DNA of 55,386 nt, from contig CAVCAF010000001.1 of the NCBI GenBank assembly GCA_963600185.1, positions 1 through 55,386 on the forward strand. Reading direction: 5' to 3'. Positions 205-40,308 of the stretch are shown here, piece by piece (positions within the stretch are counted from its first letter, which is position 1; each line of letters starts with the position of its first letter). Under the pieces are notes generated by a model. That model was not told the origin of the DNA. It saw only the letters and a program-made list of their open reading frames with translations, and did not search any database. The translations under genes were made by a program, and so were the position numbers. Origin of the DNA: Azospirillum sp. 51_20. Lineage in GTDB: Bacteria; Verrucomicrobiota; Kiritimatiellia; RFP12; UBA1067.

Positions 205-1599
205 ATGAAACTTATGCGAAGGTTGTTTCTAGGTCTAGTCGTCACGAGCTGTGTCGCGCTCAGTGGCTGTTTCTCGGTGGATTCCGCCGCGGCAGAAGCG
301 CGCAAGGCTCTTTTACAGGGCGATATGCCGCGCGTTTGTGCGTGGGCGGAGGAACTGGCGACAAACAGCTCCTACTCTGCCGCGCTTGGGTATGTGGAAG
401 CGGGGCGTGCACGCTTTCTCGCAGGCGACTTCGCCGCGAGTGAGAGTTGGTTTCGCCGCGCCATAGATTCAAGTGTGAAGCGCAGTGAGAGCGGTCCGCG
501 TATCAATCTGACGGATGTTGGGAATACGGCACTCGCGGCGACGGTGACGGATGACCGTACGCGGCAGTATACGCTCGGTGCTTATGAACTGAACTTAGCC
601 CTTCAGTATGGCATTCTCGCCGAGGTGCTGAATAACAAGTATGAAGAGGCCCTCGTTGATTCGCGTCTCGCCATTTATGTGCAAGATACGCTCGCGGAAA
701 AGTTAGGCGGCGACCTCGTCGCGCCTTCCTCCAGCACCAACCAATCGGAACTCGCCGCGCAAAATATCTGCGAAGGACAGGACGCGGCACTGGACGACCT
801 CATAGCGGGGACGCGTAATTCGTGGGAGAATCCTGTCCTTTGGTGGCTGACGGGCATTCTTTTTGAGACGAATGGCGAACTTGACTTCGCGCAACAATCT
901 TACCGCAAGGCGCACGCGATTCGTCCCGAGAACACCTTATTTGCCGCGGACGCCGCGCGGTTCGCCGTGGGCAAGCCCCAACAGCGGTTACCGAAGAAGG
1001 GCAAGGCACGGATAGTCGTCCTTTATGATGCGGGGCTTGTGCCGATGAGGGAGTCGCTCAAGGTGCCCGTCCCCATTTACACAGGCATGGCGATAGACAT
1101 CCCTGTTTATCGTGAAAAGCGCACGACTTACGGGACGCTTCAGGTGGATGGCAGCCAAGGTTCGCTGGGACTTGACGTGACGGCCCTCGCCGCACGCGAC
1201 TTAAAGGAGCAGTTGCCGGGTATTGTCACGCGCAATGTGACGCGCGCGGCAGTGCAGGCTGCCGCCCAAGCCGCCGTTAATAATGCGGGCAATGAGTACG
1301 CCCAAATTGGTGTCTTCGCGGCAAATGCCATTATCTCGGCTCTTCGCCGTGCCGATACGCGCTCGTGGTTGACGCTGCCTGCCCAGACACAAGTCGCCAC
1401 AGTTGAGGATATCACGCCAGGCGCATACGCGCTTAAACTTACGACGGTGCACGGCGTAACGACTTTTGAATGCACCTTAAAGGCGGACGAAACGCGGCTA
1501 ATTTATGTCGCGGATGTTGCGCGTGGTGCGCGGCTTGCTTCCTGTTCACTGGGAGCTACCGCTAATAACACTGTCTTTGAGAATCACGAAGGCTATTAA
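205..1599 (+). CDS. putative lipoprotein of unknown function
   Basis: I trimmed ORF 124..1599 to the ATG at 205. The N-terminus MKLMRRLFLGLVVTSCVALSGC is a signal peptide plus lipobox (LSG|C). It is co-oriented with, and adjacent to, the LpoB-like lipoprotein gene. Confidence 0.6.
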   Translation: MKLMRRLFLGLVVTSCVALSGCFSVDSAAAEARKALLQGDMPRVCAWAEELATNSSYSAALGYVEAGRARFLAGDFAASESWFRRAIDSSVKRSESGPRINLTDVGNTALAATVTDDRTRQYTLGAYELNLALQYGILAEVLNNKYEEALVDSRLAIYVQDTLAEKLGGDLVAPSSSTNQSELAAQNICEGQDAALDDLIAGTRNSWENPVLWWLTGILFETNGELDFAQQSYRKAHAIRPENTLFAADAARFAVGKPQQRLPKKGKARIVVLYDAGLVPMRESLKVPVPIYTGMAIDIPVYREKRTTYGTLQVDGSQGSLGLDVTALAARDLKEQLPGIVTRNVTRAAVQAAAQAAVNNAGNEYAQIGVFAANAIISALRRADTRSWLTLPAQTQVATVEDITPGAYALKLTTVHGVTTFECTLKADETRLIYVADVARGARLASCSLGATANNTVFENHEGY

Positions 1600-1616
1600 A
1601 AAGAAAGGTCCTAATT

Positions 1617-2204
1617 ATGAAACAACTACTCATTCTATTAGCAGTCGCCTCTTTGGCGTATGGGTGCGCGAGTACCAGTGCACGCGAAACGCAACTGGAT
1701 AAGCAGGCACGAAGTGCCGCGCTCGAGCCGCAAGATGTGCGGCGCACGGTTGAAAAGATGGTGGACTCCATGCTCGCTGACGGCGACTTTATTCGTGAAG
1801 TCGGCGGTTCGCGTCCAGTCCTCGATATTGCCAAGGTGCAAAACCGCTCGTCCATGCATCTCGATATGACTTCGCTGACGGACTCTATTCGTACGAAACT
1901 TCTGCGCTCACGCAAGTTCCGTTTTATGGATCACACAACTGCCGCGGACGATTTGCAGTTTATGAATGACCAGGCGCTCAATGGCTTAACGGACTCTAAG
2001 AAGGCTGTTCGTGCGGGTGCACAATCTGCCGCGCAGATGTATCTCTACGGTGCGCTTTCTGAAATGCGTCAGCAGGTGGACGGCGTCACAGACCGTTATT
2101 TCAAGTTCACACTGAACTTAAAGGACTTGCGCTCAGGCGAGATTATCTGGAGCGACGAGCAAGAAATCCGTAAAGAGCAAAAGCGCGGCGTAATCGGCTT
2201 CTAA
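1617..2204 (+). CDS. LpoB-like (COG3417-type) lipoprotein, putative penicillin-binding-protein activator family
   Basis: The N-terminus MKQLLILLAVASLAYGC is a lipoprotein signal. The C-terminal region (YLYGALSEM..YFKFTLNLKDLRSGEIIWSDEQEIRK) resembles the LpoB C-terminal domain pattern. This is a by-eye similarity only. Confidence 0.55.
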   Translation: MKQLLILLAVASLAYGCASTSARETQLDKQARSAALEPQDVRRTVEKMVDSMLADGDFIREVGGSRPVLDIAKVQNRSSMHLDMTSLTDSIRTKLLRSRKFRFMDHTTAADDLQFMNDQALNGLTDSKKAVRAGAQSAAQMYLYGALSEMRQQVDGVTDRYFKFTLNLKDLRSGEIIWSDEQEIRKEQKRGVIGF

Positions 2205-6927: not shown

Positions 6928-7920
6928 GTGAAGAACTCGCAATTTCTTAAGAAGCCGACGGCGGGGGCAACGAAAGCCCCCGTACGCGCAGAAAAAAGGC
7001 ATGGGCTAGGGCGCGGACTTGATTCGCTCATTGCGCCTAAGGCTAGTGCCGCGTCTCCCGTAGCGTCTGCCGCGCCAGCCTTGCGTGTGCCGTCAGTCGC
7101 GCGCAATGAGGTTTCCTTTGAACTCCCCATAAACGAGATCGCGCGTAGCCCTTATCAGCCGCGCCGCGACTTCAAAGAAGGGGAGTTAAAGGAACTCGCG
7201 GAGTCTCTTAAGAATAACGGGCTCGTCCAACCCCCAACCGTCCGCAAGAACGCGGCAGGTAAGTGGGAGTTAATCGCGGGTGAGCGTCGCCTTCGTGCGG
7301 CGCAACTCGCGGGTTGGCAGCGTATTCAGGTTGTCGTTAAGAATGTGGATGACCTGACCGCCGCCGCGATGACGACGACGGAAAATCTTCAGCGTGAAGA
7401 CCTGAACCCAATCGAAGAGGCGGCGAGCTATAAGACCTTGCAAGACCAATTTGGGCTAACCCAGCAAGAAGTCGCCGCGCGGGTCGGGAAGGGACGCGCC
7501 ACCGTCGCGAATGCCGTCCGTCTCTTAGAGTTGCCAGAGGAAGTTAAGGCGCTTATCCAAAGCGGACTTCTTTCGTCCGGGCACGCGAAAGTGCTTCTCT
7601 CGGTTGAGGATGAGAAGCATCGTATACTTCTCGCGCGTGATAGCGTTAATGAACAGTTGACCGTTAGAGCCTTGGAGAAGAGGATCGCGCGGCTTAGCGA
7701 GCCTATTAAGGAAAAGAAGAAGGGCGAAAATGATTTGCCCGATGGCTATGTTCGTGCGCTCTGTGATAAATTACGTAAGCACCTCGGGTGCGCCGTCCGG
7801 TTAACAAGCGGGGTTACCCACGCTAATGGCAAGCACTCCAAAGGCGTTCTTGAGATTGATTTCTTTGATAATGATGAGCTAGATCGTATTTTGCGCATGA
7901 TAGGCGTAGAGGTCGATTGA
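6928..7920 (+). CDS. parB: chromosome partitioning protein ParB/Spo0J
   Basis: GRGLDSLI, the ParB box LIAGERRLRAAQLAG and an HTH (QQEVAARVGKGRATVANAVRLL) are present. The start is GTG. Confidence 0.9.
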   Translation: MKNSQFLKKPTAGATKAPVRAEKRHGLGRGLDSLIAPKASAASPVASAAPALRVPSVARNEVSFELPINEIARSPYQPRRDFKEGELKELAESLKNNGLVQPPTVRKNAAGKWELIAGERRLRAAQLAGWQRIQVVVKNVDDLTAAAMTTTENLQREDLNPIEEAASYKTLQDQFGLTQQEVAARVGKGRATVANAVRLLELPEEVKALIQSGLLSSGHAKVLLSVEDEKHRILLARDSVNEQLTVRALEKRIARLSEPIKEKKKGENDLPDGYVRALCDKLRKHLGCAVRLTSGVTHANGKHSKGVLEIDFFDNDELDRILRMIGVEVD

Positions 7921-10600: not shown

Positions 10601-10738
10601 CCTTCAAGAGACCGCGGTCTCAGCACCTTGAGACCGCGGTCACTCGACCCTGAGACCGCGGTCTCTTGCCCGATAGACCGCGGTCTCCAAGCCAACAGAC
10701 CGCGGTCTCTAAGCCTATAGACCGCGGTCTCTTGAAGG
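10601..10738. repeat. 22-bp-periodic array (6 units) of the palindrome GAGACCGCGGTCTC with 8-nt variable spacers
   Basis: Units start at 10608, 10630, 10652, 10674, 10696 and 10718. The array is bracketed by CCTTCAAGAGACC and GGTCTCTTGAAGG. Positions 10606-10687 are identical to 40128-40209. Confidence 0.95.
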
Positions 10739-10867: not shown

Positions 10868-11143
10868 TGTTCGGACGGCGGATAAAGCAGGAAAGCGTCC
10901 GAATTGATAGGCCAAGAGTATGCTTAAGTGGCAAAGTGCCGCGCTCCGCTCTTTAAGGTCGTGTAATGATTTAGCGTCAACGCTAACAAGTCGTTCTGCA
11001 GAAATACTGGTACTATTTCAACAGGTGAACGGCATGAGAGTGATGATGCGCCCTTTGGGCGTGTTATCTTATTGTGTATTCACCTATGCCTGTACCAGGG
11101 CTACTGCAGAGTGCATGAGAAGATGATGCGCTCTTTTCTTTTG
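10868..11143 (+). ncRNA. candidate structured ncRNA or long regulatory leader (approx 275 nt, unidentified class)
   Basis: A strong promoter lies upstream and a terminator at 11108-11143. Internal hairpins include TTCGGACG (10870-10877) with CGTCCGAA (10896-10903), and AGGTGAA with TTCACCT. The only ORF (68 aa) has atypical codons and no RBS. Confidence 0.35.
11108..11143 (+). terminator. intrinsic terminator
   Basis: AGAGTGC (11108-11114) pairs with GCGCTCT (11128-11134), giving a 7-bp stem with one G-U pair and a 13-nt loop. It is followed by TTTCTTTTG. Confidence 0.5.
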
Positions 11144-11196
11144 CATTGAATGGGTTCGGCGGCGAACTACTAGCGCAGAACCTGGAGAGAAAGAAG

Positions 11197-23101: not shown

Positions 23102-24108
23102 TATACGACGCTTTTACATTCTTTAATGAATTAGACTTACTGGAGATTCGGCTTAATACGCTCGCCTCCGTAGTTGATAAGTTCGTAATAGCCGAAGCGA
23201 CGCGCACCCACCGCGGCAAACCCAAGCAACTTTTGTTTGAAGCTAACAAATCGCGCTTTAGTGCGTTTCTTCCGAAGATTATCTACATTAAGGTAGACGA
23301 TCTACTCTCAGAAGAAGAGATAAATAAAGACCCCTATAATCTTGCTTGGGTGAATGAGAATCGTCAGCGGAATGCCCTTAAGCGTGGTTTAATAGAGGCG
23401 CGCGCGAATGATATAATTTTGCTGTCCGATTTGGATGAGATACCGCGCCCCGAAATAGTTGCGCAATTGGAGTCCGTCCTTGATGGAAGTACACGCGGCG
23501 TACGGTTTAGGATGTCCGCTTATTACTATTATCTAAACTATCTTAATTATACAAAACCCGTTTGGGAAATGGGCACATTTGCCGCGCGCTACAGGGTGTT
23601 TGGCGATAATGCCTATCTCAGCCGAACACTTATGGGGCGCTTCACACCTGAGTCTGAAAATCGCGGCGCTACTATGCAACGGCTCCGCTTTATGCCTGCG
23701 GATAGGGACTTGCCGCACGCGGGTTGGCATTTCTCGTACTTGGGAGGCATAGAGGCGATTGAGAATAAATTGCGGTCTTTCTCACATTCTGAGTTTAGTG
23801 CGATACCGCGTCCTGTTTTAGAGCAAAGTATCCGTAAGGGGCGCGATCCATTTGGACGCGGGGAGATGTTTTTTGGCGAGGTGATAGACGATAGCTTCCC
23901 ACGGTATGTGAGAGAAAATCAAGATAAACTTGCCGCCTTAATTTTTAAGGTGGACGCGGACTATCTCGCGCGGACAGCATTCCCGCGGCGGATAGCGAAG
24001 TTAAGGGGGCGCTTGCATACTTTTCTTGTGCGTATAATCCCACAAAAGTGGGTGCCGTCAATATTGCGTGTGCGCGAAGCCTTGCTTAAAAAGTTAGGTA
24101 GGCTATGA
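23098..24108 (+). CDS. glycosyltransferase family 17-like (GnT-III-like) protein
   Basis: The N-terminus MIYDAFTFFNELDLLEIRLNTL...VDKFVIAEATRTH..KPK and the SDLDEIP motif are typical of bacterial GT17 homologues. Confidence 0.75.
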   Translation: MIYDAFTFFNELDLLEIRLNTLASVVDKFVIAEATRTHRGKPKQLLFEANKSRFSAFLPKIIYIKVDDLLSEEEINKDPYNLAWVNENRQRNALKRGLIEARANDIILLSDLDEIPRPEIVAQLESVLDGSTRGVRFRMSAYYYYLNYLNYTKPVWEMGTFAARYRVFGDNAYLSRTLMGRFTPESENRGATMQRLRFMPADRDLPHAGWHFSYLGGIEAIENKLRSFSHSEFSAIPRPVLEQSIRKGRDPFGRGEMFFGEVIDDSFPRYVRENQDKLAALIFKVDADYLARTAFPRRIAKLRGRLHTFLVRIIPQKWVPSILRVREALLKKLGRL

Positions 24109-25394
24109 CCCCAAGTTGCCATAGACCTGTTAAGGAGCGGATGACGCGGCGGTGTCCGTCACATGATTATTCGGTGCGCGGCGTTTATATGATTACGACC
24201 CAGCTCGCGGTGCGGGAGCCGAAGTTGGGTACGCTTGAGCCGATTCCGTGCGGGGAATGGTGCGTGAGGCCGAGTGCGCTTGGCTGGAAGGTTCTTGCTT
24301 GCTGGGAGGCTATCCCTAAACACTGGCCGCAGGTTAAACTTATTGCCCACCAACTCATGCCTGACCACTTTCATGGGCTTTTATTTGTGAAGGAAGATTT
24401 ACCAATCGTCTCGGGACGGCAGAAGGTACTTGGGGATATCATGCGCGGCTTTAAGGCGGGGTGCCGCGAAGTTGGTTGGCAGGCGGGCTTTACGGACTCC
24501 CTCCTCAAGCGCGAAGGGCAACTCGCACAACTCAGGCGCTACATCGCCGATAATCCGCGGCGGTTAGCCGAGAAGCGGCGACATAAGGCGTATTTTAAGG
24601 TCGTAGAAGATTTGGCAATAGAGTTGGGCGGGGGCGTATGCGGTTTGTTTGCGGGGCTCGGGAATGCCGCGCTCGCGAATAAAGTGCCGCGGGTTTATGT
24701 GCAGTGTTCGCGCAAGGACTTCGCATATAAACATACGCGCCTTGAGAGTGGCAATTGGCGCATTGAGCGCAACGAGAAAGGCGCGGCACTTGTTGACTTT
24801 GAAACGCCTACTTTTAAAGAGAAAGCGGCGCAGTTTTTAGAAGCTGTAAAGAAGGGCGCGGTGCTGGTGAGCCCCTGTATCTCGCATGGCGAGAAAGAAA
24901 TCATACGCCGCGCATTTGAGGCGGGCGGTAGTGTAATTTGTCTGCGAAATAAGGGTTTTGGTAAACTAGAGAAACCCATGGGCAAGATGTTTGACCTCTG
25001 TGCCTCGGGGCGACTCTTATTGCTCGCGCCAAAGAATTGGCTCTATACAATGAGTAAAAAGCCAATAAGCCGCGAAGACGCGCTTGTATTAAATACGCTC
25101 ACCCAATTACTCGCGGACAGTGAGGTCGTGGTTAATTATAAGGGTCGGGTACCCAATGGGCTTGGGGCTTTGTGTGCCCAAGCGGTAGATAGCCCTATGT
25201 TAGAGGCGATAATAAATAGCGCCATTTCTGGCGCTAAACCTAACGCCCCCACACCGCCAAGTGACCTGCCCCGCGTATCGCCGCCGTTAACTCAAGCTCA
25301 AACGCGCGTAAACGAGGCTAAAGCCCCGCCCCACCCCCGTGTTGTGCCGTTAGGTTCTGCCGCGGAAACGCGGCAGTTAGGAGCCTTCGTATGA
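24105..25394 (+). CDS. RayT/IS200-like (COG1943, HUH Y1-transposase fold) domain protein with an approx 260-aa C-terminal extension
   Basis: LMPDHFHGLLFV is the HUH motif, alongside WQAGFTDSLL and RRYIADNPRRL. The C-terminal part (GAVLVSPCISHGEKEIIRRAFEAGGSVICLRNKGFG) looks DprA/SLOG-Rossmann-like by eye. The last approx 20 codons run through a REP-like hairpin. Confidence 0.65.
   Translation: MTPSCHRPVKERMTRRCPSHDYSVRGVYMITTQLAVREPKLGTLEPIPCGEWCVRPSALGWKVLACWEAIPKHWPQVKLIAHQLMPDHFHGLLFVKEDLPIVSGRQKVLGDIMRGFKAGCREVGWQAGFTDSLLKREGQLAQLRRYIADNPRRLAEKRRHKAYFKVVEDLAIELGGGVCGLFAGLGNAALANKVPRVYVQCSRKDFAYKHTRLESGNWRIERNEKGAALVDFETPTFKEKAAQFLEAVKKGAVLVSPCISHGEKEIIRRAFEAGGSVICLRNKGFGKLEKPMGKMFDLCASGRLLLLAPKNWLYTMSKKPISREDALVLNTLTQLLADSEVVVNYKGRVPNGLGALCAQAVDSPMLEAIINSAISGAKPNAPTPPSDLPRVSPPLTQAQTRVNEAKAPPHPRVVPLGSAAETRQLGAFV
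25313..25379. repeat. REP-like repeat copy A (CGAGGCTAAAG ... GTGCCGTTAGGTTCTGCCGCGGAAACGCGGCAGTTA)
   Basis: The hairpin CTGCCGCG-GAAA-CGCGGCAG lies at 25357-25376. It is near-identical to 28006-28041. Confidence 0.85.
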
Positions 25395-26155
25395 CCCAGC
25401 CCCTAATCATCTCGGTTGTACGCGACTTCGCGATGTATGAGCGCTCGTTAGGCTCAAACCCCAATTGCCGCGGTTGCCAGCTTATACCTTTAGATAACCG
25501 CGCCAAAAATGAGGGGCTACCCAAACGCTATAACGCGTTTCTCGCCTCGCGTCCGTCTTCAGAAGAGGCGTGGTATATTTTTTGCCATGAGGACTTCGAA
25601 CCGCGCGAGCCGCTTTTGCCGCGGTTAGCCAACCTTGACCCAAACGCCATTTGGGGCGTAATCGGGGCCGTCACACGCGTTAGATTTGGTCTCTATCATC
25701 AATGGCTTCTTCTTGGGCAAATCACCGAATGCAACAAAGATGGCTCAAACGAGCACCCCCTCGGCGAAAAAGTCGCGCTTGGTACACCTGTTGAGACCTT
25801 TGATTGCCAATGCCTAATCGTACACTCTTCACTCATTAGGCGACTCAACTTAAGCTTTGACGAGCACCTAACCTTTGACCTTTATGTGGAAGACTTTTGT
25901 ATGGCTGCTGCCGCGAAAGGGGTTGCCGCGCGTATCTTGCCGCTCGCGTGTCGTCACTGGAGCAATGGTAAGACGCAGCCGCGCTATTATGTCCAAGAAG
26001 CGTATCTCGCTAAGAAGTATCCGAATGTGTGTTTTACGGGCATTATATCGTGTATGCTTGGGGGTAAAGTGCTTTGGGGACGCCGCTTAACGATTTTTCT
26101 ACGGCGTTATGTGCGCGACTCAATCTTGAAGGTCGTCCACGCCTTGTTTAAGTAA
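25391..26155 (+). CDS. putative GT-A-fold glycosyltransferase-like protein
   Basis: LIISVVRD...YNAFL...WYIFCHEDFEP...FDCQCLIVH...FDLYVEDFC...CRHWSNG matches the pattern of small LOS/LPS-locus glycosyltransferases. This is a by-eye call. Confidence 0.5.
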   Translation: MTQPLIISVVRDFAMYERSLGSNPNCRGCQLIPLDNRAKNEGLPKRYNAFLASRPSSEEAWYIFCHEDFEPREPLLPRLANLDPNAIWGVIGAVTRVRFGLYHQWLLLGQITECNKDGSNEHPLGEKVALGTPVETFDCQCLIVHSSLIRRLNLSFDEHLTFDLYVEDFCMAAAAKGVAARILPLACRHWSNGKTQPRYYVQEAYLAKKYPNVCFTGIISCMLGGKVLWGRRLTIFLRRYVRDSILKVVHALFK

Positions 26156-26953
26156 ATAGGCGAAAGTCGTTTTGCCGTGCAACCCGAAGGGCTTGATGCT
26201 TGCCGCGGGGAGCGCGACATACCCCCCCAAATCATCAAACGCGAAATGAAATGCCGCGCTTTCGCTGGGGAAAGTAAACCTGCCCCACGCTTGGGGAACT
26301 AGCCTTAAATAGAAGGTGTAGTAGAAGTCTTCGCCACAATCTCGTGCGAGTCGCCGAAGCCCCTTAGCCCACATTTCTGCCGCGAACGCACAAAAACGCC
26401 GCGAACGGAGCGAGAAGCCTCCGTTATAAGTGCCTAGCCCAATCGCATAGAAGAACTTGCGCTTAAGTCCGTCACAAATTATGGGCGCACCCCAGAAGTC
26501 CGCCTTGCCCAAGAAGTCGCCGAGATTGTCGCTTAGGGGGAATCCGTCATCTTGGATGACTAGGCAATTGGGCGTTGAAAAGCGCGCATGAAGTCGCTGA
26601 ATGCAATCCGCGCTCATAGAAGGGATGTTGCCCGGCACAAGGCTCGGCTCGACTTGTATTTCAACGAACTTCTCGCCGCTTGCGAAGTCGGTCGCCTCTT
26701 TAAAAAGGCGCGGCACAATGAGTACCGTCTTAAGCCCCCCGAGTACATGCCACGATTGGCGAATCGCGAACTCTATCCATTGAAACGATTCCGCCTCGGT
26801 GCCTTCCTTAGGGAAAGAATAGATAATTAGCGTGACTTCGTCAAAGTATTTAGAGACGGCGGGCGTTTCGGCACGCAAAGTGGGTAGCCGCTTTAGTTGC
26901 CAGTCGCGTAAGAGCTTCGTCGCTTCCTTTATCTCGTCTTGAGTCAACTTCAT
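26120..26953 (-). CDS. DUF5672-like putative glycosyltransferase
   Basis: YNGGFSLRSRR and VIQDDGFP motifs are present. The gene converges on, and overlaps by 36 nt, the + strand gene. Confidence 0.5.
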   Translation of the reverse strand: MKLTQDEIKEATKLLRDWQLKRLPTLRAETPAVSKYFDEVTLIIYSFPKEGTEAESFQWIEFAIRQSWHVLGGLKTVLIVPRLFKEATDFASGEKFVEIQVEPSLVPGNIPSMSADCIQRLHARFSTPNCLVIQDDGFPLSDNLGDFLGKADFWGAPIICDGLKRKFFYAIGLGTYNGGFSLRSRRFCAFAAEMWAKGLRRLARDCGEDFYYTFYLRLVPQAWGRFTFPSESAAFHFAFDDLGGYVALPAASIKPFGLHGKTTFAYLLKQGVDDLQD

Positions 26954-27831
26954 TTTCTAAGAAAAACCTTGTCTACGAAGTGGGCAACGCCTTGCGCACC
27001 AAACACCTTGCGCGAGGTATTCATGATATGCCGTATTAAGCGCATAATAAACGCCATAGCGAAATACCCAAGTTTCGCGAGCGGGAGGGGATATTTACCC
27101 GCCGTAATCGAATAGCCCTGCGCTGTTATAGAATAGGAGAGCGCGGTCTCTAGAAGCCCCGCGAGCCCAAAGTCGACATGCGCAATCTTAGGCGTGACTT
27201 CTAGAAAGTCGTCCCATGTGAAGCGGGCGACAAACGGCTTAAGAAGTGCCGCGCGAACCATGAAGATTGTGCCCGCGACGGAAACTAGAGCCCGCGGCGT
27301 AAGCCCAAGCGACCGCAATAAATTACAGGCTGAAGTTTTACTTTCTAGGCAAAAGTCGCTACTCGCGTAGTTAATAAAGCAGCTGGAAGCGAGGAGCCCA
27401 AGTTTGGGGTGGCGCGTAAATGCCGCGAGGGATTCGCGCACTTTCTCGGGTGACGCACAAAACGCGAGGAGCTTTCGCCGCCATTCGTTGCCGTGAACTG
27501 GACGGAATCCGATAATGCCGTCCACATCGCGCTTCGTGTGCAACTTGACGATGTAGTCGTAATTCTCAAGAGGGCCTTTGTTCAGAACTTCGCAGACGAA
27601 CGCGCCGACATCGTATCCGCGATTAGGTGTCTCAATTATCTTGACAGCGGGATAGGGCAACAACTTCGGTAAAAGCGCGGCAAACTCAGGCTTTACGGTA
27701 GGATATGTCGCGATAATCGAAACACGCTCCGCGCCGCAAACTTCGATGAAGTTGCGGCAACACTCCGCAATCTCGGGGGCGATTTCCGGATAGAAGAAGT
27801 GAGCATGTATAAGTACGCGGCAATCTCTCAT
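26950..27831 (-). CDS. RgpF (rhamnan synthesis protein F)-like polysaccharide glycosyltransferase
   Basis: LIHAHFFYPEI...PNRGYDVGAF...KLHTKR motifs are present. Confidence 0.6.
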   Translation of the reverse strand: MRDCRVLIHAHFFYPEIAPEIAECCRNFIEVCGAERVSIIATYPTVKPEFAALLPKLLPYPAVKIIETPNRGYDVGAFVCEVLNKGPLENYDYIVKLHTKRDVDGIIGFRPVHGNEWRRKLLAFCASPEKVRESLAAFTRHPKLGLLASSCFINYASSDFCLESKTSACNLLRSLGLTPRALVSVAGTIFMVRAALLKPFVARFTWDDFLEVTPKIAHVDFGLAGLLETALSYSITAQGYSITAGKYPLPLAKLGYFAMAFIMRLIRHIMNTSRKVFGAQGVAHFVDKVFLRK

Positions 27832-27838
27832 TGCGGAT

Positions 27839-27847
27839 ATTATACCA
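27839..27847 (-). promoter_or_regulatory. extended -10 promoter TGGTATAAT (minus strand), leaderless configuration
   Basis: The reverse complement of 27839-27847 is TGGTATAAT. Only 7 nt (ATCCGCA) separate the hexamer from the ATG at 27831. Confidence 0.6.
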
Positions 27848-27926
27848 AAACTCGCCCCACGATACCATACGCGATTTTATTCGCCACGCTTTGGGCGACG
27901 TTAACTTTAACCCCAATGCGAGTTGC

Positions 27927-28041
27927 CGAGGCTAAAGTAGTGCCCTTACCTAGTGTAGTGCCGTTAGGTTCTGCTGCGTTTGAAGTTGCGACCTTACCCA
28001 GTGTCGCACCGTTAGGTTCTGCCGCGGAAACGCGGCAGTTA
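27927..28041. repeat. REP-like repeat copy B (two sub-units, the second carrying the hairpin)
   Basis: CGAGGCTAAAG lies at 27927. CCTTACC(T/C)AGTGT.G..CCGTTAGGTTCTGC occurs twice, about 46 nt apart. The hairpin CTGCCGCGGAAACGCGGCAG lies at 28019-28038. Confidence 0.85.
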
Positions 28042-28069
28042 AGGGCCTGCTTAAGGCGCGTGAGAGTAA

Positions 28070-28143
28070 GTAGAAGGGGGTGGCGCTCTTACTGGGAGAG
28101 GCACCCCCTCTTGCGTAGGAGGGGGTGGCAGTTCTACTGGGAC
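28070..28143. repeat. 45-nt tandem duplication (GTAG(A/G)AGGGGGTGGC..T.CT.ACTGGGA)
   Basis: The units start at 28070 and 28115. Confidence 0.8.
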
Positions 28144-28331
28144 GGGTACCCGCTCGCGCCGTCTTTCGCGTCATCTTGGGCTACTTTCCAAAACCTTGTC
28201 AAGTTTTTTTTAAAACTTTTTTCACCTGTGATGGGTAGAAAATGGCACTTAGCCATCTTCGCGTTTTTCGCACCCAAACTCACTGCGGAATTCGCGTCCA
28301 AACCGCGGCACTTACCGCGGCAGATTGGCAA

Positions 28332-28400
28332 GGGGCGGGGAAGGGTGGCAAAAGTGGGGGTTTTGGGGTGGCTAAAAACCCGATTTTGGGTGTTTTGGGG
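28332..28400 (+). other. G-run cluster with T4G4-like units (potential G-quadruplex)
   Basis: GGGG-C-GGGG-AA-GGG ... GGGGGTTTTGGGG ... GATTTTGGG-TGTTTTGGGGG. Confidence 0.6.
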
Positions 28401-28699
28401 GTGCGGAGAGGTGTCCGTCGGCGAGATCAAGATTTAAAATGCCATAATCGGTGACTAGGAGGCTCGTATTGCGCTTGGAAGGGTTCGGATGTGGGAGGAT
28501 ACACCCCAAAGCGAGGAGCCCCTAAAATCGAAAATTTTCGGGGTGTCTGGCGATTAGGCATTTTGGACGGATTTCGTCCGCGGCAAAATCGCGGCATTTC
28601 CGCGGCGTTTTGGAGGCTAAAAACCGTGCTTTTGGCAGTCAGGTTTCGGGCAAGTAAGCTAATAGCCCCAACTGTCCAACTGTAAAAATAACTAAAAAA

Positions 28700-28938
28700 A
28701 TGCTGTGTGCGTGTGTTTTGTGTGGGGCTGTTAGGCTGTTAACTGTTAAAAAACAACAAAAAATGGCTGTGTGTGTTGTTTTTGTGGATGCTTGGGTGTT
28801 TGTCGTAGGTGAAAGGAAGGTTAGTTTCTCGTTTTCGTTTTCGCTCGGCTAGGGGGTGAGGGGGGTCACAACAACACACACACAACATAAGTGTCGTTTT
28901 GGACAACAACAGTTGGACAAAACACACGCACACAACAT
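28700..28938. repeat. long imperfect inverted repeat, GT-rich arm and CA-rich arm
   Basis: TGTGTGCGTGTGTTTTGT (28705-28722) is exactly complementary to ACAAAACACACGCACACA (28917-28934). CTGTGTGTGTTGTTTTTGTGG (28767-28787) roughly matches CACAACAACACACACACAAC (28867-28886). Confidence 0.85.
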
Positions 28939-29050
28939 TTCTTTCTATTTCTTTTTTATTTTCTTCTTCTTGCTTTCTCTTTAAAGGGGTCTGGGGGAAC
29001 CTTTCTCTTTCATTCGTCTTCTTTGTTTTTTTCTTTTTCTTTCTTGCCCT
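28939..29050 (+). repeat. approx 110-nt polypyrimidine (CT-rich) low-complexity tract
   Basis: TTTCTTTCTATTTCTTTTTTATTTTCTTCTTCTTGCTTTCTCTTT ... CTTTCTCTTTCATTCGTCTTCTTTGTTTTTTTCTTTTTCTTTCTTGCCCTC. Confidence 0.85.
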
Positions 29051-29295
29051 CAAAAAGCGTCTTCTCTAGCCCCTCCAGAGTGCTCGCCTCGGGGTCGCTT
29101 GGGGTGGCTTTGGGGATTCAGAAGGGTGGCTTAGGGTGCCTTCGGGCGGGCGCGGCGATTTCCGCGGCGAACCTTTTGGGTAGCGTTAAGGGGTGAAAAA
29201 GGGTGCTCCAAAAAAAGTTTTAGGGGCTTCAAAAATTGGCGTTTGGAAACTTAAAATGAAAAATGCAGTTGCCGAAAATTAGTTGAAAAATCCTA

Positions 29296-29325
29296 TTGAC
29301 CCGGCACACCGAAATATGGTATAAT
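29296..29325 (+). promoter_or_regulatory. tRNA-Val promoter (TTGACC-N18-TATAAT, TATGGTATAAT) with upstream A-tract region
   Basis: The -35 lies at 29296-29301 and the -10 at 29320-29325. Multiple A5-7 tracts lie between 29196 and 29290. Confidence 0.75.
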
Positions 29326-29341
29326 ATTCGCCAATTAGCAA

Positions 29342-29418
29342 GGGCTATTAGCTCAGTTGGTTAGAGCGCTTCCTTGACATGGAAGAGGTCAGTAGTTCGA
29401 ATCTACTATAGCCCACCA
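29342..29418 (+). tRNA. tRNA-Val (anticodon GAC), CCA encoded
   Basis: The cloverleaf was folded by hand. The acceptor stem is GGGCTAT/ATAGCCC, the D-arm is GCTC-AGTTGGTTA-GAGC, the anticodon stem is CTTCC/GGAAG with loop TTGACAT, and the T-arm is AGTAG-TTCGAAT-CTACT. Confidence 0.92.
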
Positions 29419-29445
29419 TTCCCCACCCGAAACTCCAACCCTAAC

Positions 29446-29512
29446 CTTGTTGTTGCCTTAGTGCCATGCTCGTTGTTGCCCTCGTGCCATTGCCTTGTTG
29501 TTGCCCTGTCCC
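29446..29512. repeat. three tandem 23-24-nt units (C.TGTTGTTGCC.T.GTGCCAT)
   Basis: The units start at about 29446, 29469 and 29493, immediately 3' of tRNA-Val. Confidence 0.75.
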
Positions 29513-29612
29513 AACTATAACCTAGTACAACGCTAAGCGCGGGGGTGGTCACGCGAGGGGAGTGAAAATCTTTGATTTTAGTGAGATTCTTCTCCGAAAG
29601 AGGCTCTATTTT

Positions 29613-29621
29613 TGATATAAT
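29613..29621 (+). promoter_or_regulatory. extended -10 promoter TGATATAAT
   Basis: The hexamer lies at 29616-29621. An ATG follows 7 nt downstream (29629) and opens a 9-codon mini-ORF that ends in an ATGA overlap with the next gene. Confidence 0.5.
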
Positions 29622-29654
29622 ATAAGGGATGAAAAGTACGAGAGAGAAAGAAGG

Positions 29655-30656
29655 ATGAAAAAGGCGACAAGATTCCGTGCGGTCGTCCTCGCGGGCGGCA
29701 GTGGCGAGCGGTTTTGGCCGCTTTCGACGAAAGAGAAGCCCAAGCAATTTTTGAATGTGTTTGGGGGCGTGAGTCTTTTGCGTCAGAGTGTGACGCGGCT
29801 AGAGAAGTTGGCGACGCCTGAGGGACTCTATGTCATCACGGCGAAGGATCTCGTAGGGTTAACGCGCAAGGAGCTCCCCGAAGTGCCACCGCGGCAGATT
29901 GTGGGCGAGCCGTTCCGTCGTGATACGGGAGCTGCGATTGCACTGGGGACGGGACTTGCGGGCGCGGCAAATGATGATGTCATCGGCTTTTTCGCGAGCG
30001 ACCATCTTATCCGTAATGAGCATGCCTTTCTCGCGACAGTCAAAAAGGCGATTCGCCTCGCCGCGGCAAAAGAGAAGATTGTCGTTATTGGGATACCCCC
30101 AACATGGGGATCGCCTGCGTTTGGGTATGTGGACCCAAAGACGGGTGCATTCGTTGAGAAGCCCGACGCGAAGAAGGCGAAGCAATATTTAAAGAAGGGC
30201 TACTTGTGGAATGCGGGGCTTTTCATTGCGCGTGCAAGCGTCTTTCGTGCCGCGATCGCGGCGTATGCGCCCGCGTTGAAGCCTTTAACGGAAAGTGCCG
30301 CGTTTTCTGCTGCACGCCTCGCGCGACTGTATGAGCCGTTGCCGCGGATTTCGTTTGATTATGCGGTGATGGAGAAGTCCGTTAATGTCGCGGTTATTCG
30401 TGGGGACTTCGGCTGGGACGATGTGGGCGGCTTTCAGGCGTTCGATCGCTACTTCCCGCACGACAAGAAGGGCAACGTGCGCGAGGGGCCTTGCCGCGTC
30501 GTTTCCTCGGCGGGGAATATTTGCGTCGTGAGAGGGGCGCCCATTTCGCTTTTGGGAGTCTCCAATCTCGTCGTCATAACAACGCCCCAAGGCGTGCTCG
30601 TCGCGAATAAGCGTCACCTCTCGGATATGAAGAAACTCTTTCAGACGACCTCGTAA
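29655..30656 (+). CDS. mannose-1-phosphate guanylyltransferase (nucleotidyltransferase domain only)
   Basis: AVVLAGGSGERFWPLS is the N-terminal signature, and FASDH and WNAGLF motifs are present. At 333 aa it has no PMI/cupin domain. Confidence 0.8.
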   Translation: MKKATRFRAVVLAGGSGERFWPLSTKEKPKQFLNVFGGVSLLRQSVTRLEKLATPEGLYVITAKDLVGLTRKELPEVPPRQIVGEPFRRDTGAAIALGTGLAGAANDDVIGFFASDHLIRNEHAFLATVKKAIRLAAAKEKIVVIGIPPTWGSPAFGYVDPKTGAFVEKPDAKKAKQYLKKGYLWNAGLFIARASVFRAAIAAYAPALKPLTESAAFSAARLARLYEPLPRISFDYAVMEKSVNVAVIRGDFGWDDVGGFQAFDRYFPHDKKGNVREGPCRVVSSAGNICVVRGAPISLLGVSNLVVITTPQGVLVANKRHLSDMKKLFQTTS

Positions 30657-40005: not shown

Positions 40006-40116
40006 TCTCTCGGGGTAGCTGAGACACTGTCTCGGGGTGATGTTTCTACTGTCTCGGGGTGGCGCTCGCAGTGTCTCGGGGTGCCCCTCCCAGTGTCTCG
40101 TCCTAGGTGAGATACT
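40003..40116. repeat. 22-bp-periodic array of A(C/G)TGTCTCGGGGTG units with 8-nt variable spacers
   Basis: Units start at 40003, 40025, 40047, 40069 and 40091, with a degenerate unit at 40113. The first unit overlaps the tadA stop codon. Confidence 0.9.
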
Positions 40117-40129
40117 GCGCGGAGGCTAA

Positions 40130-40256
40130 GAGACCGCGGTCTCAGCACCTTGAGACCGCGGTCACTCGACCCTGAGACCGCGGTCTCTTGCCCGATAGAC
40201 CGCGGTCTCTCACCCTTGAGACCGCGGTCTCTGAGCCTATAGACCGCGGTCTCTTA
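40130..40256. repeat. 22-bp-periodic array (6 units) of the palindrome GAGACCGCGGTCTC
   Basis: Units start at 40130, 40152, 40174, 40196, 40218 and 40240. The first four units plus their spacers are identical to the 10.6-kb locus. Confidence 0.95.
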
Positions 40257-40308
40257 AAGGGCTACTAAGGAGACCCCCCACAATCTTCCAAGTAGATGTA
40301 GGTTTCTC

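What the first reader, a model, noticed from the sequence alone, without database searches (positions are those of the whole stretch)
27832..29341. 1.5-kb gene-free, repeat-dense, structure-prone region between the glycosyl island and tRNA-Val
In a window where intergenic gaps are typically 0-40 nt, this 1.5-kb stretch has no credible ORF. The ORFs in the track here are repeat-derived or low-complexity. The region is a mosaic of the following:
- REP-like units (27927-28041)
- a 45-nt tandem duplication (28070-28143)
- recurring CCGCGGC-containing motifs (28301-28330, 28577-28612, 29150-29178)
- two copies of GGCTAAAAACC (around 28369 and 28617)
- a T4G4-like G-run block
- a roughly 240-nt GT/CA inverted repeat
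- about 110 nt of polypyrimidine
- GGGTGGCTT repeats (around 29100-29135)
- an A-tract-rich segment leading into the tRNA-Val promoter

This composition is very unusual for bacterial DNA. It could be a large structured ncRNA locus, a recombination, phase-variation or integration hot spot, or a decayed mobile or plasmid-derived replication or partition region.
Basis: partly seen in the sequence, partly recalled or inferred. Interest (0 to 1): 0.72.

Follow-up and report, generated by a model that had tools for sequence, protein, structure and literature searches.

The report
Repeat-built non-coding spacer before tRNA-Val
The 1.5-kb gene-free stretch is real, non-coding DNA found only in one lineage of gut Kiritimatiellae; it is pieced together from gene-end leftovers, hairpin repeats and local duplications at a rearrangement-prone junction between a sugar-coat gene island and a tRNA gene, and the function of its well-conserved middle part is unknown.

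Summary
27832-29341 is by far the largest gene-free gap in the contig (1510 nt; median gap 3.5 nt), and nearly every listed repeat is present. Only CCGCGGC is not special, because it is over-represented genome-wide.

It is not a misassembly. A second metagenome (L085) carries the same 1.3 kb at 92-93% identity, and a third assembly (L089) carries its start.

It is non-coding. Indels of 1, 2 and 11 nt break every ORF, substitutions show no codon periodicity, and there are no family or Rfam hits.

Same-genus relatives (L084, L086) have the RgpF-like gene and tRNA-Val only about 100 nt apart, so the stretch is a lineage-specific expansion of a divergent-promoter spacer. Synteny breaks on both sides.

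- **Left 240 nt:** relics of two gene 3' ends, one carrying a hairpin copied from a RAYT-like HUH gene 2.5 kb upstream. The repeat units vary in copy number between strains.
- **Next:** two GTAG-headed REP-like hairpins, iteron-plus-hairpin modules, a 260-nt fold-back and a pyrimidine tract.
- **Right end:** an A-tract element feeding the tRNA-Val promoter.

Best reading: recombination and duplication scar DNA. A roughly 0.5-kb core is conserved beyond synonymous sites, so a cis-DNA or RNA role is not excluded. Interest is modest.

The parts
27832..27870 (-). Promoter of the RgpF-like gene (26950-27831). It has an extended -10 box, TGGTATAAT, at 27839-27847 on the minus strand. The TATAAT ends 7 nt before the ATG, a leaderless-type spacing.
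   Evidence: The same arrangement is conserved in L084, L085 and L086.
27885..28048 (+). Diverged duplicate of the 3' end of the HUH/RAYT-like gene (source 25270-25390). It contains an internal 48-nt tandem duplication (27924-27971 and 27972-28019) and the hairpin CTGCCGCG-GAAA-CGCGGCAG (28017-28036).
   Evidence: 73-88% identity overall, with 33 nt identical at 28009-28041 = 25347-25379. The 48-nt unit is single in L089 and double in the window, L082 and L090. Short-read contigs L082 and L090 end exactly at the two repeat copies.
28050..28069 (+). Relic of the last 20-25 nt, including the stop region, of a 251-aa glycosyltransferase gene. That gene is intact at this position in L085.
   Evidence: Alignment A2 and the L085 gene table. 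In L085 the gene at 1307-2062(-) is 86.5% identical in amino acids to window 25391-26155 and ends where the shared non-coding sequence starts.
28070..28155 (+). Two tandem 45-nt units in direct orientation, each a GTAG-headed imperfect palindrome (GTAG-AGGGGGTGGC...GCCACCCCCT). This is REP-like architecture.
   Evidence: D2, I10. Local folding z-scores are -2.2 to -3.9. The units are conserved in L085 and L089. The GT(A/G)G head plus palindrome layout matches the published REPs in Table 1 of PMC2817692.
28296..28403 (+). Module A1: CCGCGGC twice, then G-runs with GGGTGGC twice, then the A/T-stem hairpin GGGGTTTT-GGGGTGGCT-AAAACCC and TTTTGGG repeats.
   Evidence: (D8, D9). 28343-28403 has no substitution against L085.
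28443..28451 (+). Only internal promoter-like element: TGCCATAAT, two mismatches from the lineage's TGGTATAAT. A possible weak start for a roughly 170-nt transcript. This is speculative.
   Evidence: Read from the sequence. It is conserved in L085 but is not found at <=1 mismatch.
28568..28645 (+). Module A2: CCGCGGC-N5-CGCGGC-N4-CCGCGGC iterons followed by TTTTGGAGGCTAAAAACC and TTTTGG. In L085 an 11-nt unit (GTTTCGGGCAA) just after it is duplicated.
   Evidence: There are 3 substitutions in 28550-28649.
28651..28668 (-). Inverted 16/18-nt copy of the first 18 nt of tRNA-Val (GGGCTATTAGCTtAcTTG). Probably a relic of an old inverted duplication.
   Evidence: I5. In one search, 2 of 300 composition-preserving shuffles reach the score. 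The match falls to 15/18 in L085.
28683..28952 (.). Long imperfect fold-back (inverted duplication). The GT-rich left arm contains a 64-nt-spaced direct repeat (28683-28722 and 28747-28786). The CA-rich right arm is 28868-28952.
   Evidence: D3, D7, I1. Folding z-scores are -3.3 and -6.2. One double change keeps a pair: 28788/28866 is A-T in the window and C-G in L085.
28938..29065 (+). Pyrimidine-rich tract (purine-rich on the minus strand), with no substitution against L085.
   Evidence: 79% pyrimidine, the window maximum; 0 substitutions in 28950-29049.
29098..29185 (+). GGGTGGCTT twice, a G-quadruplex-type motif (29124-29150), and a degenerate third iteron module (CGCGGC-N6-CCGCGGC, TTTTGGG). 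This is the least conserved block, about 83-85% identical.
29190..29295 (+). Array of seven A4-A7 tracts upstream of the tRNA-Val promoter. It resembles an UP-element or curved DNA.
   Evidence: About 97% identical to L085. It is absent in L084 and L086, where the RgpF promoter sits there instead.
29296..29418 (+). tRNA-Val(GAC) promoter (TTGACC-18-TGGTATAAT, 29296-29325) and gene (29342-29418).
   Evidence: The promoter is conserved in L084, L085 and L086.
24105..25394 (+). Associated gene outside the finding: a 429-aa protein with an N-terminal HUH/Y1 (RAYT / IS200-like) domain and a DprA/ShosA-like C-terminal half. Its last roughly 105 nt, including the hairpin, are the source of the duplicate at 27885-28048.
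   Evidence: NCBIfam REP_Tyr_transpos, E 2.9e-6, 27 bits, below the cut-off of 80. (invariant H88, H90, Y146). (best fold match 4ER8, RAYT bound to a REP hairpin, E 2e-5, TM 0.56 normalised to the target).

Best explanation
The stretch is a lineage-specific, single-copy, non-coding expansion of the spacer between two divergent promoters: the RgpF-like glycosyltransferase gene reading leftwards and tRNA-Val reading rightwards. It lies at the edge of a fast-changing surface-glycan gene island in a gut Kiritimatiellae species.

It is mostly by-product DNA built up by local rearrangement.

**(a) Gene-end relics.** Reshuffling of glycan-gene cassettes takes place at a repeated hairpin-bearing segment, the 3' end of a RAYT-like HUH gene. 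This left two gene-end relics at the left end. It also left direct repeats that now bracket the three-gene block 25391-27831.

**(b) Duplications.** Slippage and fold-back replication errors added tandem units of 48, 45, 64 and 11 nt and a 260-nt inverted duplication. Some of these still differ in copy number between strains.

**(c) tRNA-Val upstream element.** The right-hand 150 nt are an A-tract upstream element plus the strong tRNA-Val promoter.

**How it works (inferred).** The repeats act as substrates for homologous recombination, or for HUH-mediated single-strand cleavage at hairpins. Either process swaps, deletes or duplicates neighbouring glycan genes. The rest acts as tolerated spacer DNA.

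**What is shown and what is inferred.** Shown: the relics, the repeats, the copy-number differences, absence in sister lineages and the synteny breaks. Inferred: the recombination mechanism and any role of the HUH protein.

**What remains unexplained.** A central core (about 28550-29065, plus 28343-28403) is conserved beyond the neutral expectation. It probably has some cis-DNA or RNA role that this explanation does not identify.
For: **The region is an expansion of a short spacer.**
- Relatives of the same genus (Band7 and OTCase proteins 95-98% identical) have the RgpF gene and tRNA-Val about 100 nt apart, with the same two promoters (L084, L086).
- The window and L085 have 1.3-1.4 kb more.

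**Synteny breaks on both sides.**
- Downstream of tRNA-Val the window has the NTP-transferase operon. L084 and L086 have L21/L27 there, and those genes are not in the window.
- Relatives that share the NTP-transferase operon have other genes upstream of it.
- In a third species the DNA beyond the RgpF promoter differs even between strains.

**Relics and repeats.**
- 27885-28048 copies 25270-25390.
- 28050-28069 is the end of a gene that is intact in L085.
- An inverted tRNA-Val 5' fragment lies at 28651-28668.
- The hairpin segment lies at cassette boundaries in five different gene orders: the window, L083+L089, L084, L085 and L086.
- Copy-number polymorphism: the 48-nt unit is x1 or x2, the 11-nt unit is x1 or x2, and homopolymer lengths differ.

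**The source gene is an HUH enzyme.** Its best fold match is E. coli RAYT bound to a REP hairpin. The 45-nt units have the GT(A/G)G-head-plus-palindrome layout of REPs.

**It is non-coding.** Frameshifting indels, no codon periodicity and no family hits.

**Repeat-filled spacers are a habit of this clade.**
- Other intergenic spacers carry arrays of short palindromes: window 10606-10738 and 40128-40260.
- L003 has an unrelated 880-nt repeat-filled spacer at 1090-1970.
- L095 has an iteron array at 7800-7900.
Against: **Conservation is too high for pure by-product DNA.**
- Against L085 the region is 93.2% identical (84 mismatches in 1243 aligned sites).
- Four-fold degenerate sites of the neighbouring glycosyltransferase gene are 80% identical (73/91; Fisher p = 8e-5).
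- Those of the RgpF 5' half are 75% identical.
- Conservation is uneven. 28550-29065 is about 98% identical with a 130-nt run of zero changes, while 28050-28550 is about 89% and 29065-29185 about 83%.
- This points to selection on the core, or else to a recent recombination tract. Two sequences cannot separate the two.

**One compensatory pair in the fold-back** hints that pairing matters. Arm-to-arm gene conversion would give the same pattern.

**No recombination event has been caught in the act.** Only different end states in different genomes were seen.

**The HUH link is circumstantial.**
- L086 has the hairpin without the HUH gene.
- A 47%-identical HUH homologue sits in a type I restriction-modification operon, not a glycan island.
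Confidence: 0.5

Rival explanations
1. The conserved core (about 28550-29065, possibly from about 28455) encodes one or more novel non-coding RNAs. Examples would be a roughly 170-nt sRNA starting after the TGCCATAAT element at 28443-28451, or a long hairpin RNA made from the GT/CA fold-back.
For: - The core is about 98% identical between genomes whose synonymous sites are about 80% identical.
- The long fold-back folds better than shuffled sequence, with z = -3.3 and -6.2.
- One compensatory change occurs at 28788/28866.
- A conserved weak promoter-like TGCCATAAT is present.
- Local structure is significant at about 28425-28575, with z = -2.2 and -4.1.
Against: - No Rfam family matches, even at E<=10.
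- None of the clade's stereotyped TGGTATAAT promoters lies inside the region.
- The scan found only one terminator-like site in 27500-29800, at 27881-27898 at the far left edge of the stretch and outside the proposed RNA.
- 84 of 85 predicted pairs are simply invariant, or vary on one side only.
- The two base changes at 28936/28937 weaken the outer stem without compensation.
- 28950-29340 has no structure signal.
- The element is absent from same-genus relatives.
- A near-perfect 260-nt palindrome and a 130-nt pyrimidine tract are atypical for known bacterial ncRNAs (my own knowledge).
Confidence: 0.15
2. The region is a cis-acting DNA structural element. It would be a block of non-B-DNA-forming sequence (cruciform, purine/pyrimidine triplex, G-runs, alternating GT, A-tract bends) upstream of a very strong tRNA promoter. 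It would absorb or buffer negative supercoils, or bind nucleoid proteins. That would insulate the tRNA promoter from the neighbouring glycan-gene promoter.
For: - Most classes of non-B motif are concentrated here and nowhere else in 55 kb. These are the only G4 motif, the only pyrimidine tract of 18 nt or more, two of the eight alternating purine-pyrimidine runs of 12 nt or more, and a long inverted repeat.
- It always lies immediately upstream of the tRNA-Val promoter, in both gene orders known: the window and L085.
- The low-complexity parts are the best conserved.
- A DNA-level element needs no internal promoter.
Against: - L084 and L086 run the same two promoters back to back within about 100 nt, with no such element.
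- In L085 the region is not between divergent promoters. It lies downstream of a co-directional gene.
- No experimental or comparative test of DNA structure is possible here.
- The idea rests on motif content only.
Confidence: 0.12
3. The region is the decayed non-coding part of a mobile or replicating element. One option is a rolling-circle-type origin (iterons next to an A/T-stem hairpin, served by an HUH protein). The other is a non-autonomous IS200/IS605-like element with subterminal hairpins that inserted next to tRNA-Val.
For: - Iteron-like CCGCGGC repeats sit next to the TTTTGG-GGCT-AAAAACC hairpins, twice clearly and a third time in degenerate form.
- An HUH/Y1 gene lies 2.5 kb away.
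- GTAG-headed hairpins lie at the left end.
- A tRNA fragment lies inside the region.
- The region is present or absent among congeners.
Against: - No similarity to any phage or plasmid record, or to viral contigs.
- No integrase, Rep, partition or transposase gene beside it among the genes scanned from 16.6 to 34.8 kb.
- The HUH protein is transposase/RAYT-like rather than Rep-like, and it is separated from the region by three glycan genes.
- The region appears single-copy. The k-mer-based Logan contig L085 crosses it without a break.
- nhmmer finds no second copy in about 1.2 Mb of related loci.
- No target-site duplication or terminal repeats could be defined.
- CCGCGGC is simply a common heptamer in this genome.
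Confidence: 0.08
4. Assembly artefact or chimera of low-complexity reads.
For: - Short-read unitigs from the same strain break at 25350, 28038 and 29364.
- The region contains low-complexity sequence.
Against: - An independent sample (SRR19415656, L085) assembles the whole 1.3 kb collinearly in the same genomic context at 92% identity.
- L089, L090 and L082 independently confirm the left part.
- The unitig breaks coincide with a true 33-nt repeat and with the tRNA gene.
Confidence: 0.02

Closest known systems
REP / BIME clusters with their RAYT (REP-associated tyrosine transposase), as in Enterobacteriaceae, Pseudomonas and Stenotrophomonas (PMC2817692, PMC3479197, PMC3116915)
   Same: - Extragenic imperfect palindromes with a GT(A/G)G head and a G-rich/C-rich stem (28070-28155).
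- Clustering of several palindromic units in one intergenic mosaic.
- A nearby HUH/Y1 gene whose best structural match is the E. coli RAYT-REP complex.
- A hairpin placed right at the 3' end of that gene.
   Different: - The two units are in direct orientation, not alternating.
- Only one locus is known, and no evidence exists for hundreds of dispersed copies.
- The HUH gene is not flanked by inverted REPs. It scores far below the RAYT family cut-off and carries an extra DprA-like half.
- The clade is PVC, not Proteobacteria.
- Most of the 1.5 kb (fold-back, pyrimidine tract, G-runs) has no counterpart in BIMEs.
Variable junctions of surface-polysaccharide gene islands next to tRNA genes, where rearrangements leave gene remnants (general knowledge of genomic-island biology)
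   Same: - A hypervariable glycosyltransferase cassette set.
- Much higher divergence of the glycan genes (RgpF 61-72% amino-acid identity) than of the flanking housekeeping genes (95-98%).
- Gene-end relics and direct repeats at cassette borders.
- A tRNA at the edge, and synteny breaks on both sides.
   Different: - No integrase and no att-type direct repeat of the tRNA 3' end.
- The non-coding block is unusually long and low in complexity, and it is better conserved than synonymous sites.
Double-strand origins of rolling-circle plasmids and CRESS-DNA viruses (iterons beside a nick-site hairpin recognised by an HUH Rep)
   Same: Direct short repeats sit immediately beside a small A/T-stem hairpin. 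This occurs two to three times, and there is an HUH-fold protein in the neighbourhood.
   Different: - No Rep-type protein.
- No sequence similarity to any plasmid or phage record.
- The locus is chromosomal, single-copy and unlinked to the HUH gene.
- The 'iteron' heptamer is a genome-wide common word.
Large structured bacterial ncRNAs (OLE, GOLLD, ROOL, HEARO/omega RNA)
   Same: The size class is similar (0.5-1 kb non-coding, conserved, with long-range pairing).
   Different: - No covariance-model match.
- No promoter or terminator.
- Phylogenetic spread limited to very close strains.
- Low-complexity composition.

Membership tests
REP / BIME | Short (about 20-45 nt) extragenic imperfect palindrome with a conserved GT(A/G)G head | tested here: met
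   The units at 28070-28114 and 28115-28155 start with GTAG and form 13-14-bp G/C-rich stems. The layout matches Table 1 and Fig. 1 of PMC2817692. The second GTAG is not kept in L085.
REP / BIME | High copy number, dispersed through the genome (usually >100 copies) | not testable with these tools
   Only 55 kb of this genome is available. Within it the unit occurs only here; the sole related match is a 12-nt stretch at 40056-40067. The rest of the genome could not be searched.
REP / BIME | BIME layout: regularly spaced REPs in alternating orientation | tested here: not met
   The two units are head-to-tail direct repeats, 45 nt from start to start (D2).
RAYT (for gene 24105-25394) | HUH motif and catalytic tyrosine on an IS200/RAYT-type fold | tested here: met
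   - The motif is MPDHFHGLLF.
- H88, H90 and Y146 are invariant in 24 homologues.
- The best Foldseek hit is 4ER8 (RAYT-REP complex), E 2.2e-5, followed by IS200/IS605 TnpA structures.
RAYT (for gene 24105-25394) | Score above the curated family threshold (NCBIfam REP_Tyr_transpos, 80 bits) | tested here: not met
   - NCBIfam score is 27.2 bits, E 2.9e-6.
- Pfam Y1_Tnp matches only 2 of 24 homologues, at E 0.007.
- No PDB sequence hit.
RAYT (for gene 24105-25394) | Gene flanked on both sides by REPs in inverted orientation | tested here: not met
   Only one hairpin is present, at the 3' end (25358-25377). The 5' end overlaps the preceding glycosyltransferase gene.
Known structured ncRNA family (Rfam 15) | Covariance-model match at or near the gathering score | tested here: not met
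   Only the tRNA matches. The other hits are E>1 and far below their gathering scores.
Structured ncRNA (any) | Base pairs supported by compensatory changes across homologues | tested here: inconclusive
   Only two sequences are available. One pair of 85 changed on both sides, and the rest are invariant or changed on one side.
tRNA-targeting integrative element | Integrase gene plus a direct repeat of the tRNA 3' end at the far border | tested here: not met
   No integrase among the genes from 16.6 to 34.8 kb. The only tRNA-like fragment is an inverted copy of the 5' end.
Invertible (phase-variable) promoter switch | Inverted repeats flanking a promoter, an invertase nearby, and both orientations seen | tested here: not met
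   - The pair 28651-28668 / 29342-29359 does flank the tRNA promoter, but it is 16/18 and decaying (15/18 in L085).
- No invertase gene is present.
- The window and L085 show the same orientation.
Plasmid/phage replication or partition region | Sequence similarity to known replicons, or an adjacent Rep/Par gene | tested here: not met
   No blastn match in the phage or plasmid collections or in viral contigs. No Rep or Par gene nearby.
Chromosomal replication origin or terminus | GC-skew sign change and a switch of gene orientation | tested here: not met
   Cumulative GC skew rises monotonically across the contig, and genes stay on the + strand on both sides.

The most novel reading that the evidence does not exclude
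The central roughly 0.5 kb (28550-29065) is iterons plus an A/T-stem hairpin, a 260-nt GT/CA fold-back whose arms co-vary, and a 130-nt invariant pyrimidine tract. It could be a previously undescribed functional element of gut Kiritimatiellae. One form would be a long hairpin-type non-coding RNA. The other would be a DNA-level element that works together with the neighbouring hairpin repeats and the HUH-DprA-like protein to drive cassette exchange in the surface-glycan island. That would be an integron-like diversification system based on single-strand hairpin recombination.
Probability: 0.12. Interest if true: 0.7.

Novelty: new variant of a known kind. Interest (0 to 1): 0.35.

Why it matters
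As it stands, the region is a clear worked example of how a compact bacterial genome can build a kilobase of non-coding DNA at a glycan-island/tRNA junction. The ingredients are gene-end relics, hairpin repeats and duplications. It also explains why short-read assemblies of these gut Kiritimatiellae break here.

It would matter more if the conserved core proved functional. It would matter more again if the hairpin repeats together with the widespread HUH-DprA-like protein family (more than 970 members, no Pfam family) proved to be a cassette-shuffling machinery. That would be a new route to surface-glycan variation in an abundant but uncultured gut lineage.

Tried and rejected
**Searches that found nothing**
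- Rfam at gathering and at E<=10 thresholds: only the tRNA.
- blastn of the region against 81 relatives' loci, and later against 102 loci: hits only in L085, L089, L090 and L082, plus the shared promoter.
- nhmmer with a two-sequence profile: no distant copies.
- Six-frame translation against all loci: no protein-level relic beyond the two gene ends.
- Phage and plasmid collections and two viral-contig scans: nothing.

**Searches that missed the target**
- The one metagenome scan used the tRNA-Val promoter 22-mer. It returned only two unrelated promoters with the same clade consensus. In hindsight, a region-internal pattern would not have done better in that collection.
- Exact-protein look-ups for the window's own genes returned only short unitigs.

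**Ideas tested and rejected**
- The CCGCGGC 'iterons' were tested as a specific motif and rejected, because the heptamer is 4.5-fold over-represented genome-wide.
- DnaA-box and sigma-54-like matches seen by eye are not conserved in L085, so I dropped them.
- ORFs 28739-29053(-) and 28891-29196(+) were checked as possible small proteins. The first is frameshifted in L085. The second has 5 of 22 substitutions at third codon positions.
- Origin or terminus of replication was rejected on GC skew.
- PADLOC and PDB sequence searches for the HUH protein gave nothing.
- The literature search for Kiritimatiellae intergenic repeats found nothing relevant.

Full report
**What the window is.** The window is a complete 55,386-nt NCBI contig; the identical RgpF-like protein is recorded on a contig of exactly that length. 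It comes from a gut member of the Kiritimatiellae. The best relatives of the NTP-transferase gene at 29655-30656 are Kiritimatiellae or 'Verrucomicrobia' MAGs from human and ruminant guts. The genome is compact. The median gap between genes is 3.5 nt, nearly all genes lie on the + strand, and GC skew is positive throughout.

**Checking the observation.**
- The stretch 27832-29341 is the largest gene-free gap in the window, at 1510 nt. The next gaps are 691, 354 and 236 nt.
- It is bounded by the start of an RgpF-like glycosyltransferase gene on the minus strand (26950-27831; Pfam RgpF) and by tRNA-Val(GAC) at 29342-29418.
  - the 48-nt and 45-nt tandem pairs, and the two GG(T/A)GGCTAAAAACC copies;
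  - the 64-nt-spaced GT-rich repeat, and the GT/CA inverted repeat, with folding z-scores of -3.3 and -6.2;
  - the pyrimidine tract, which is the window-wide maximum at 5.8 SD;
  - the GGGTGGC boxes, with 6 of 12 window hits inside the region, all on one strand;
  - the A-tracts in front of a near-consensus promoter.
- Two corrections apply:
  - CCGCGGC is a genome-wide favoured heptamer (119 hits against 26 expected), so its recurrence here carries no weight by itself.
  - Significant local folding is confined to the left third, two short stretches and the long fold-back. The right 400 nt are unstructured.

**It is real and non-coding.**
- A Logan contig from another sample (L085, SRR19415656) contains the orthologous 1.3 kb next to tRNA-Val. 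Window 28050-29367 aligns at 92.3% over 1333 columns.
- An NCBI MAG of the same species (L089, GCA_963635515.1; coding DNA 94-97% identical) and two further Logan contigs (L082, L090) contain its left part.
- The differences between the window and L085 include indels of 1, 1, 11, 1, 1, 2 and 1 nt, which break every ORF.
- Substitutions show no third-position excess.
- None of the ORFs has a family hit.
- Six-frame translation finds no protein-level similarity in about 1.2 Mb of related loci, beyond the two relics described below.

**It is a lineage-specific expansion of a short spacer.**
- Two relatives of the same genus (L084, L086) keep the upstream gene order: DnaX, NfeD, Band7, OTCase, M3 peptidase, TatD, then DUF5672 and RgpF on the minus strand. 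Band7 and OTCase proteins are 95-98% identical to the window's.
- In both, the RgpF start and tRNA-Val are only about 100 nt apart, with the same two promoters back to back.
- The window and L085 therefore carry about 1.3-1.4 kb extra.
- Synteny also breaks on the other side. L084 and L086 continue with L21/L27, which are absent from the window. The window continues with an NTP-transferase/TruA operon, and in other relatives that operon has quite different upstream neighbours.
- In a third, widespread species the DNA beyond the RgpF promoter differs even between strains.
- Only the 60-nt promoter of the NTP-transferase gene is alignable with the nearest relatives that share that operon.

**Anatomy, left to right.**
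1. **27832-27870:** the RgpF promoter, with TGGTATAAT on the minus strand.
2. **27885-28048:** a diverged copy of the last roughly 105 nt of gene 24105-25394. It includes the hairpin CTGCCGCG-GAAA-CGCGGCAG and an internal 48-nt duplication.
   - The two copies share 33 identical bases, and they bracket the three-gene block 25391-27831 as direct repeats.
   - The same-strain unitig L082 and the close-strain contig L090 each end at these two repeats.
   - The 48-nt unit is single in L089 and double in the window.
3. **28050-28069:** the tail of a 251-aa glycosyltransferase gene that is intact at this position in L085. The window therefore derives from an L085-like order by loss or relocation of that gene.
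4. **28070-28155:** two 45-nt GTAG-headed imperfect palindromes in tandem. Their layout is that of REP elements.
5. **28296-28403 and 28568-28645:** two copies of a module. Each has CCGCGGC-type direct repeats followed by TTTTGG-N-GGCTAAAAACC, which can form an A/T-stem hairpin. A degenerate third copy lies at 29138-29185.
6. **28651-28668:** an inverted 16/18 copy of the first 18 nt of tRNA-Val (2 of 300 shuffles reach the score).
7. **28683-28952:** a long imperfect fold-back, built from GT-rich direct repeats and their CA-rich complement.
8. **28938-29065:** a pyrimidine tract.
9. **29098-29185:** GGGTGGCTT twice and the window's only G-quadruplex-type motif.
10. **29190-29325:** phased A-tracts and the tRNA-Val promoter.

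**The neighbouring HUH gene.**
- Gene 24105-25394 has no Pfam family. It carries an HUH motif and an invariant tyrosine, and it gives a weak RAYT hit in NCBIfam (27 bits against a cut-off of 80).
- Its AlphaFold model has pLDDT 78.5. The best PDB match is the E. coli REP-associated tyrosine transposase bound to a REP hairpin, followed by IS200/IS605 transposases. The C-terminal half weakly resembles ShosA and DprA.
- The family is large, with more than 970 hits, and it is mostly found on short contigs.
- The hairpin-bearing segment sits at cassette borders in five different gene orders. This fits a role as a recombination site.
- The link to the enzyme remains circumstantial. L086 has the hairpin without the gene, and a 47%-identical homologue lies inside a type I restriction-modification operon.

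**Conservation.**
- Against L085 the non-coding region is 93.2% identical (84 mismatches in 1243 sites).
- Four-fold degenerate sites in the well-aligned parts of the two neighbouring genes are 80% (73/91) and 75% (50/67) identical. Fisher p is 8e-5 for the first comparison.
- Conservation is patchy. 28550-29065 has 10 substitutions in 515 nt, with none in 28950-29049. 28343-28403 has none. 28050-28550 is about 89% identical and 29065-29185 about 83%.
- One double substitution keeps a pair in the fold-back: 28788/28866 is A-T in the window and C-G in L085.
- Taken at face value this means purifying selection on a roughly 0.5-kb core.
- Three caveats apply:
  - The island is a recombination mosaic. 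The 3' halves of both neighbouring genes are different alleles.
  - The neutral benchmark comes from fast-evolving glycan genes.
  - Two sequences cannot separate selection from a recent recombination tract, or from arm-to-arm gene conversion.

**Interpretation.**
- The most economical account is that this is accreted DNA at a rearrangement-prone junction. It holds relics of two genes and a tRNA fragment, REP-like hairpins, and tandem and inverted duplications that still vary between strains. A genuine A-tract/promoter element for tRNA-Val sits at the right end.
- Repeat-filled spacers are a habit of this clade:
  - The window has two 133-nt arrays of the perfect palindrome GAGACCGCGGTCTC (10606-10738 and 40128-40260, 94% identical).
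  - L003 has an unrelated 880-nt spacer full of GCTCTAGAGAC repeats at the equivalent position.
  - L095 has a 22-nt iteron array upstream of its RgpF gene.
- I put this explanation at about 0.5, because it does not account for the conserved core.
- The rivals are as follows:
  - A novel ncRNA, at 0.15. No Rfam hit, no clade-type promoter and almost no covariation, but it is not excluded.
  - A DNA-structural or insulator element, at 0.12. The motif concentration is striking, but congeners do without it.
  - A decayed mobile or plasmid element, at 0.08. No similarity to any replicon, single copy, and no mobility genes.
  - An artefact, at 0.02. This is refuted by independent assemblies.

**Comparison with known systems.**
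- The left part works like, and looks like, a small REP/BIME cluster with a RAYT-like gene nearby. It fails membership on orientation and on the flanking rule. Copy number cannot be tested with 55 kb, and the protein is far below the RAYT family threshold.
- The iteron-plus-hairpin modules resemble rolling-circle origins in layout only.
- The whole resembles the scarred borders of polysaccharide islands next to tRNA genes, but it lacks an integrase and att repeats.

**Verdict.** It is a new variant of a known kind of intergenic mosaic, and interest is modest (0.35). There is a 10-15% chance that the conserved core, or the hairpin/HUH cassette system, is something new.

Noticed in passing
window 24105-25394: A 429-aa protein with no Pfam family. 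The N-terminal domain has an HUH/Y1 fold closest to E. coli RAYT (4ER8), and the C-terminal half is weakly like ShosA and DprA. The family has more than 970 members, mostly Kiritimatiellae and mostly on short contigs. One 47%-identical homologue lies between hsdM and hsdS of a type I restriction-modification operon (L103-L107).
   Followed up: partly
window 10606-10738 and 40128-40260: Two 133-nt arrays, 94% identical to each other, of the perfect 14-nt palindrome GAGACCGCGGTCTC. It is repeated 6-7 times at a 22-23-nt period. Each array lies about 100 nt upstream of a TGGTAT(A/C)AT promoter. This is a dispersed BIME-like element of this genome.
   Followed up: partly
window 40010-40100: Four tandem copies of TGTCTCGGGGTG at a spacing of about 22 nt, immediately before the palindrome array. 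One copy shares GGGGTGGCGCTC with the hairpin at 28077-28088.
   Followed up: no
window 10870-11145: About 280 nt lie between a strong promoter (TGGTATAAT at 10853) and the next ORF (11146), with no Rfam match. This may be a long leader or an unannotated small RNA.
   Followed up: no
window 29446-29507: Three tandem 23-25-nt repeats (CTTGTTGTTGCCnTnGTGCCAT) lie between tRNA-Val and the NTP-transferase promoter, at the other synteny breakpoint.
   Followed up: no
window 27829-27847 (minus strand); also L084 3088-3110 and L086 2420-2443: The RgpF-like gene starts 7 nt after its TATAAT box. This suggests a leaderless mRNA, and the spacing is conserved in relatives.
   Followed up: no
window-wide; L091, L092: Promoters in this clade share an unusually long consensus, (C)CGAAATATGGTATAATATTCG. 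The exact 22-mer recurs at unrelated genes in other metagenome contigs. TGGTATAAT at <=1 mismatch occurs 19 times in the window against 6 expected.
   Followed up: partly
window-wide: The heptamer CCGCGGC is 4.5-fold over-represented (119 against 26 expected), in coding and non-coding DNA alike. The cause is unknown; codon-pair bias or an uptake- or Chi-like signal are possibilities.
   Followed up: no
L003 1090-1970; L095 7800-7900: Relatives carry their own, non-homologous repeat-filled spacers at equivalent junctions. L003 has GCTCTAGAGAC five to six times, plus ATCGTCGGTGGCG twice followed by GGGGTTTTTAGGGTAAAAAC. L095 has GTTGCGCCGGAACGGC five times at a 22-nt period.
   Followed up: partly
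window 26120-27831 compared with L084, L085, L086, L093: The glycan genes are far more diverged between congeners than the flanking housekeeping genes (RgpF 57-72% and DUF5672 73% amino-acid identity, against Band7 and OTCase at 94-98%). The 3' halves of RgpF and of the 254-aa glycosyltransferase are different alleles in L085. This is a mosaic, fast-exchanging island.
   Followed up: partly
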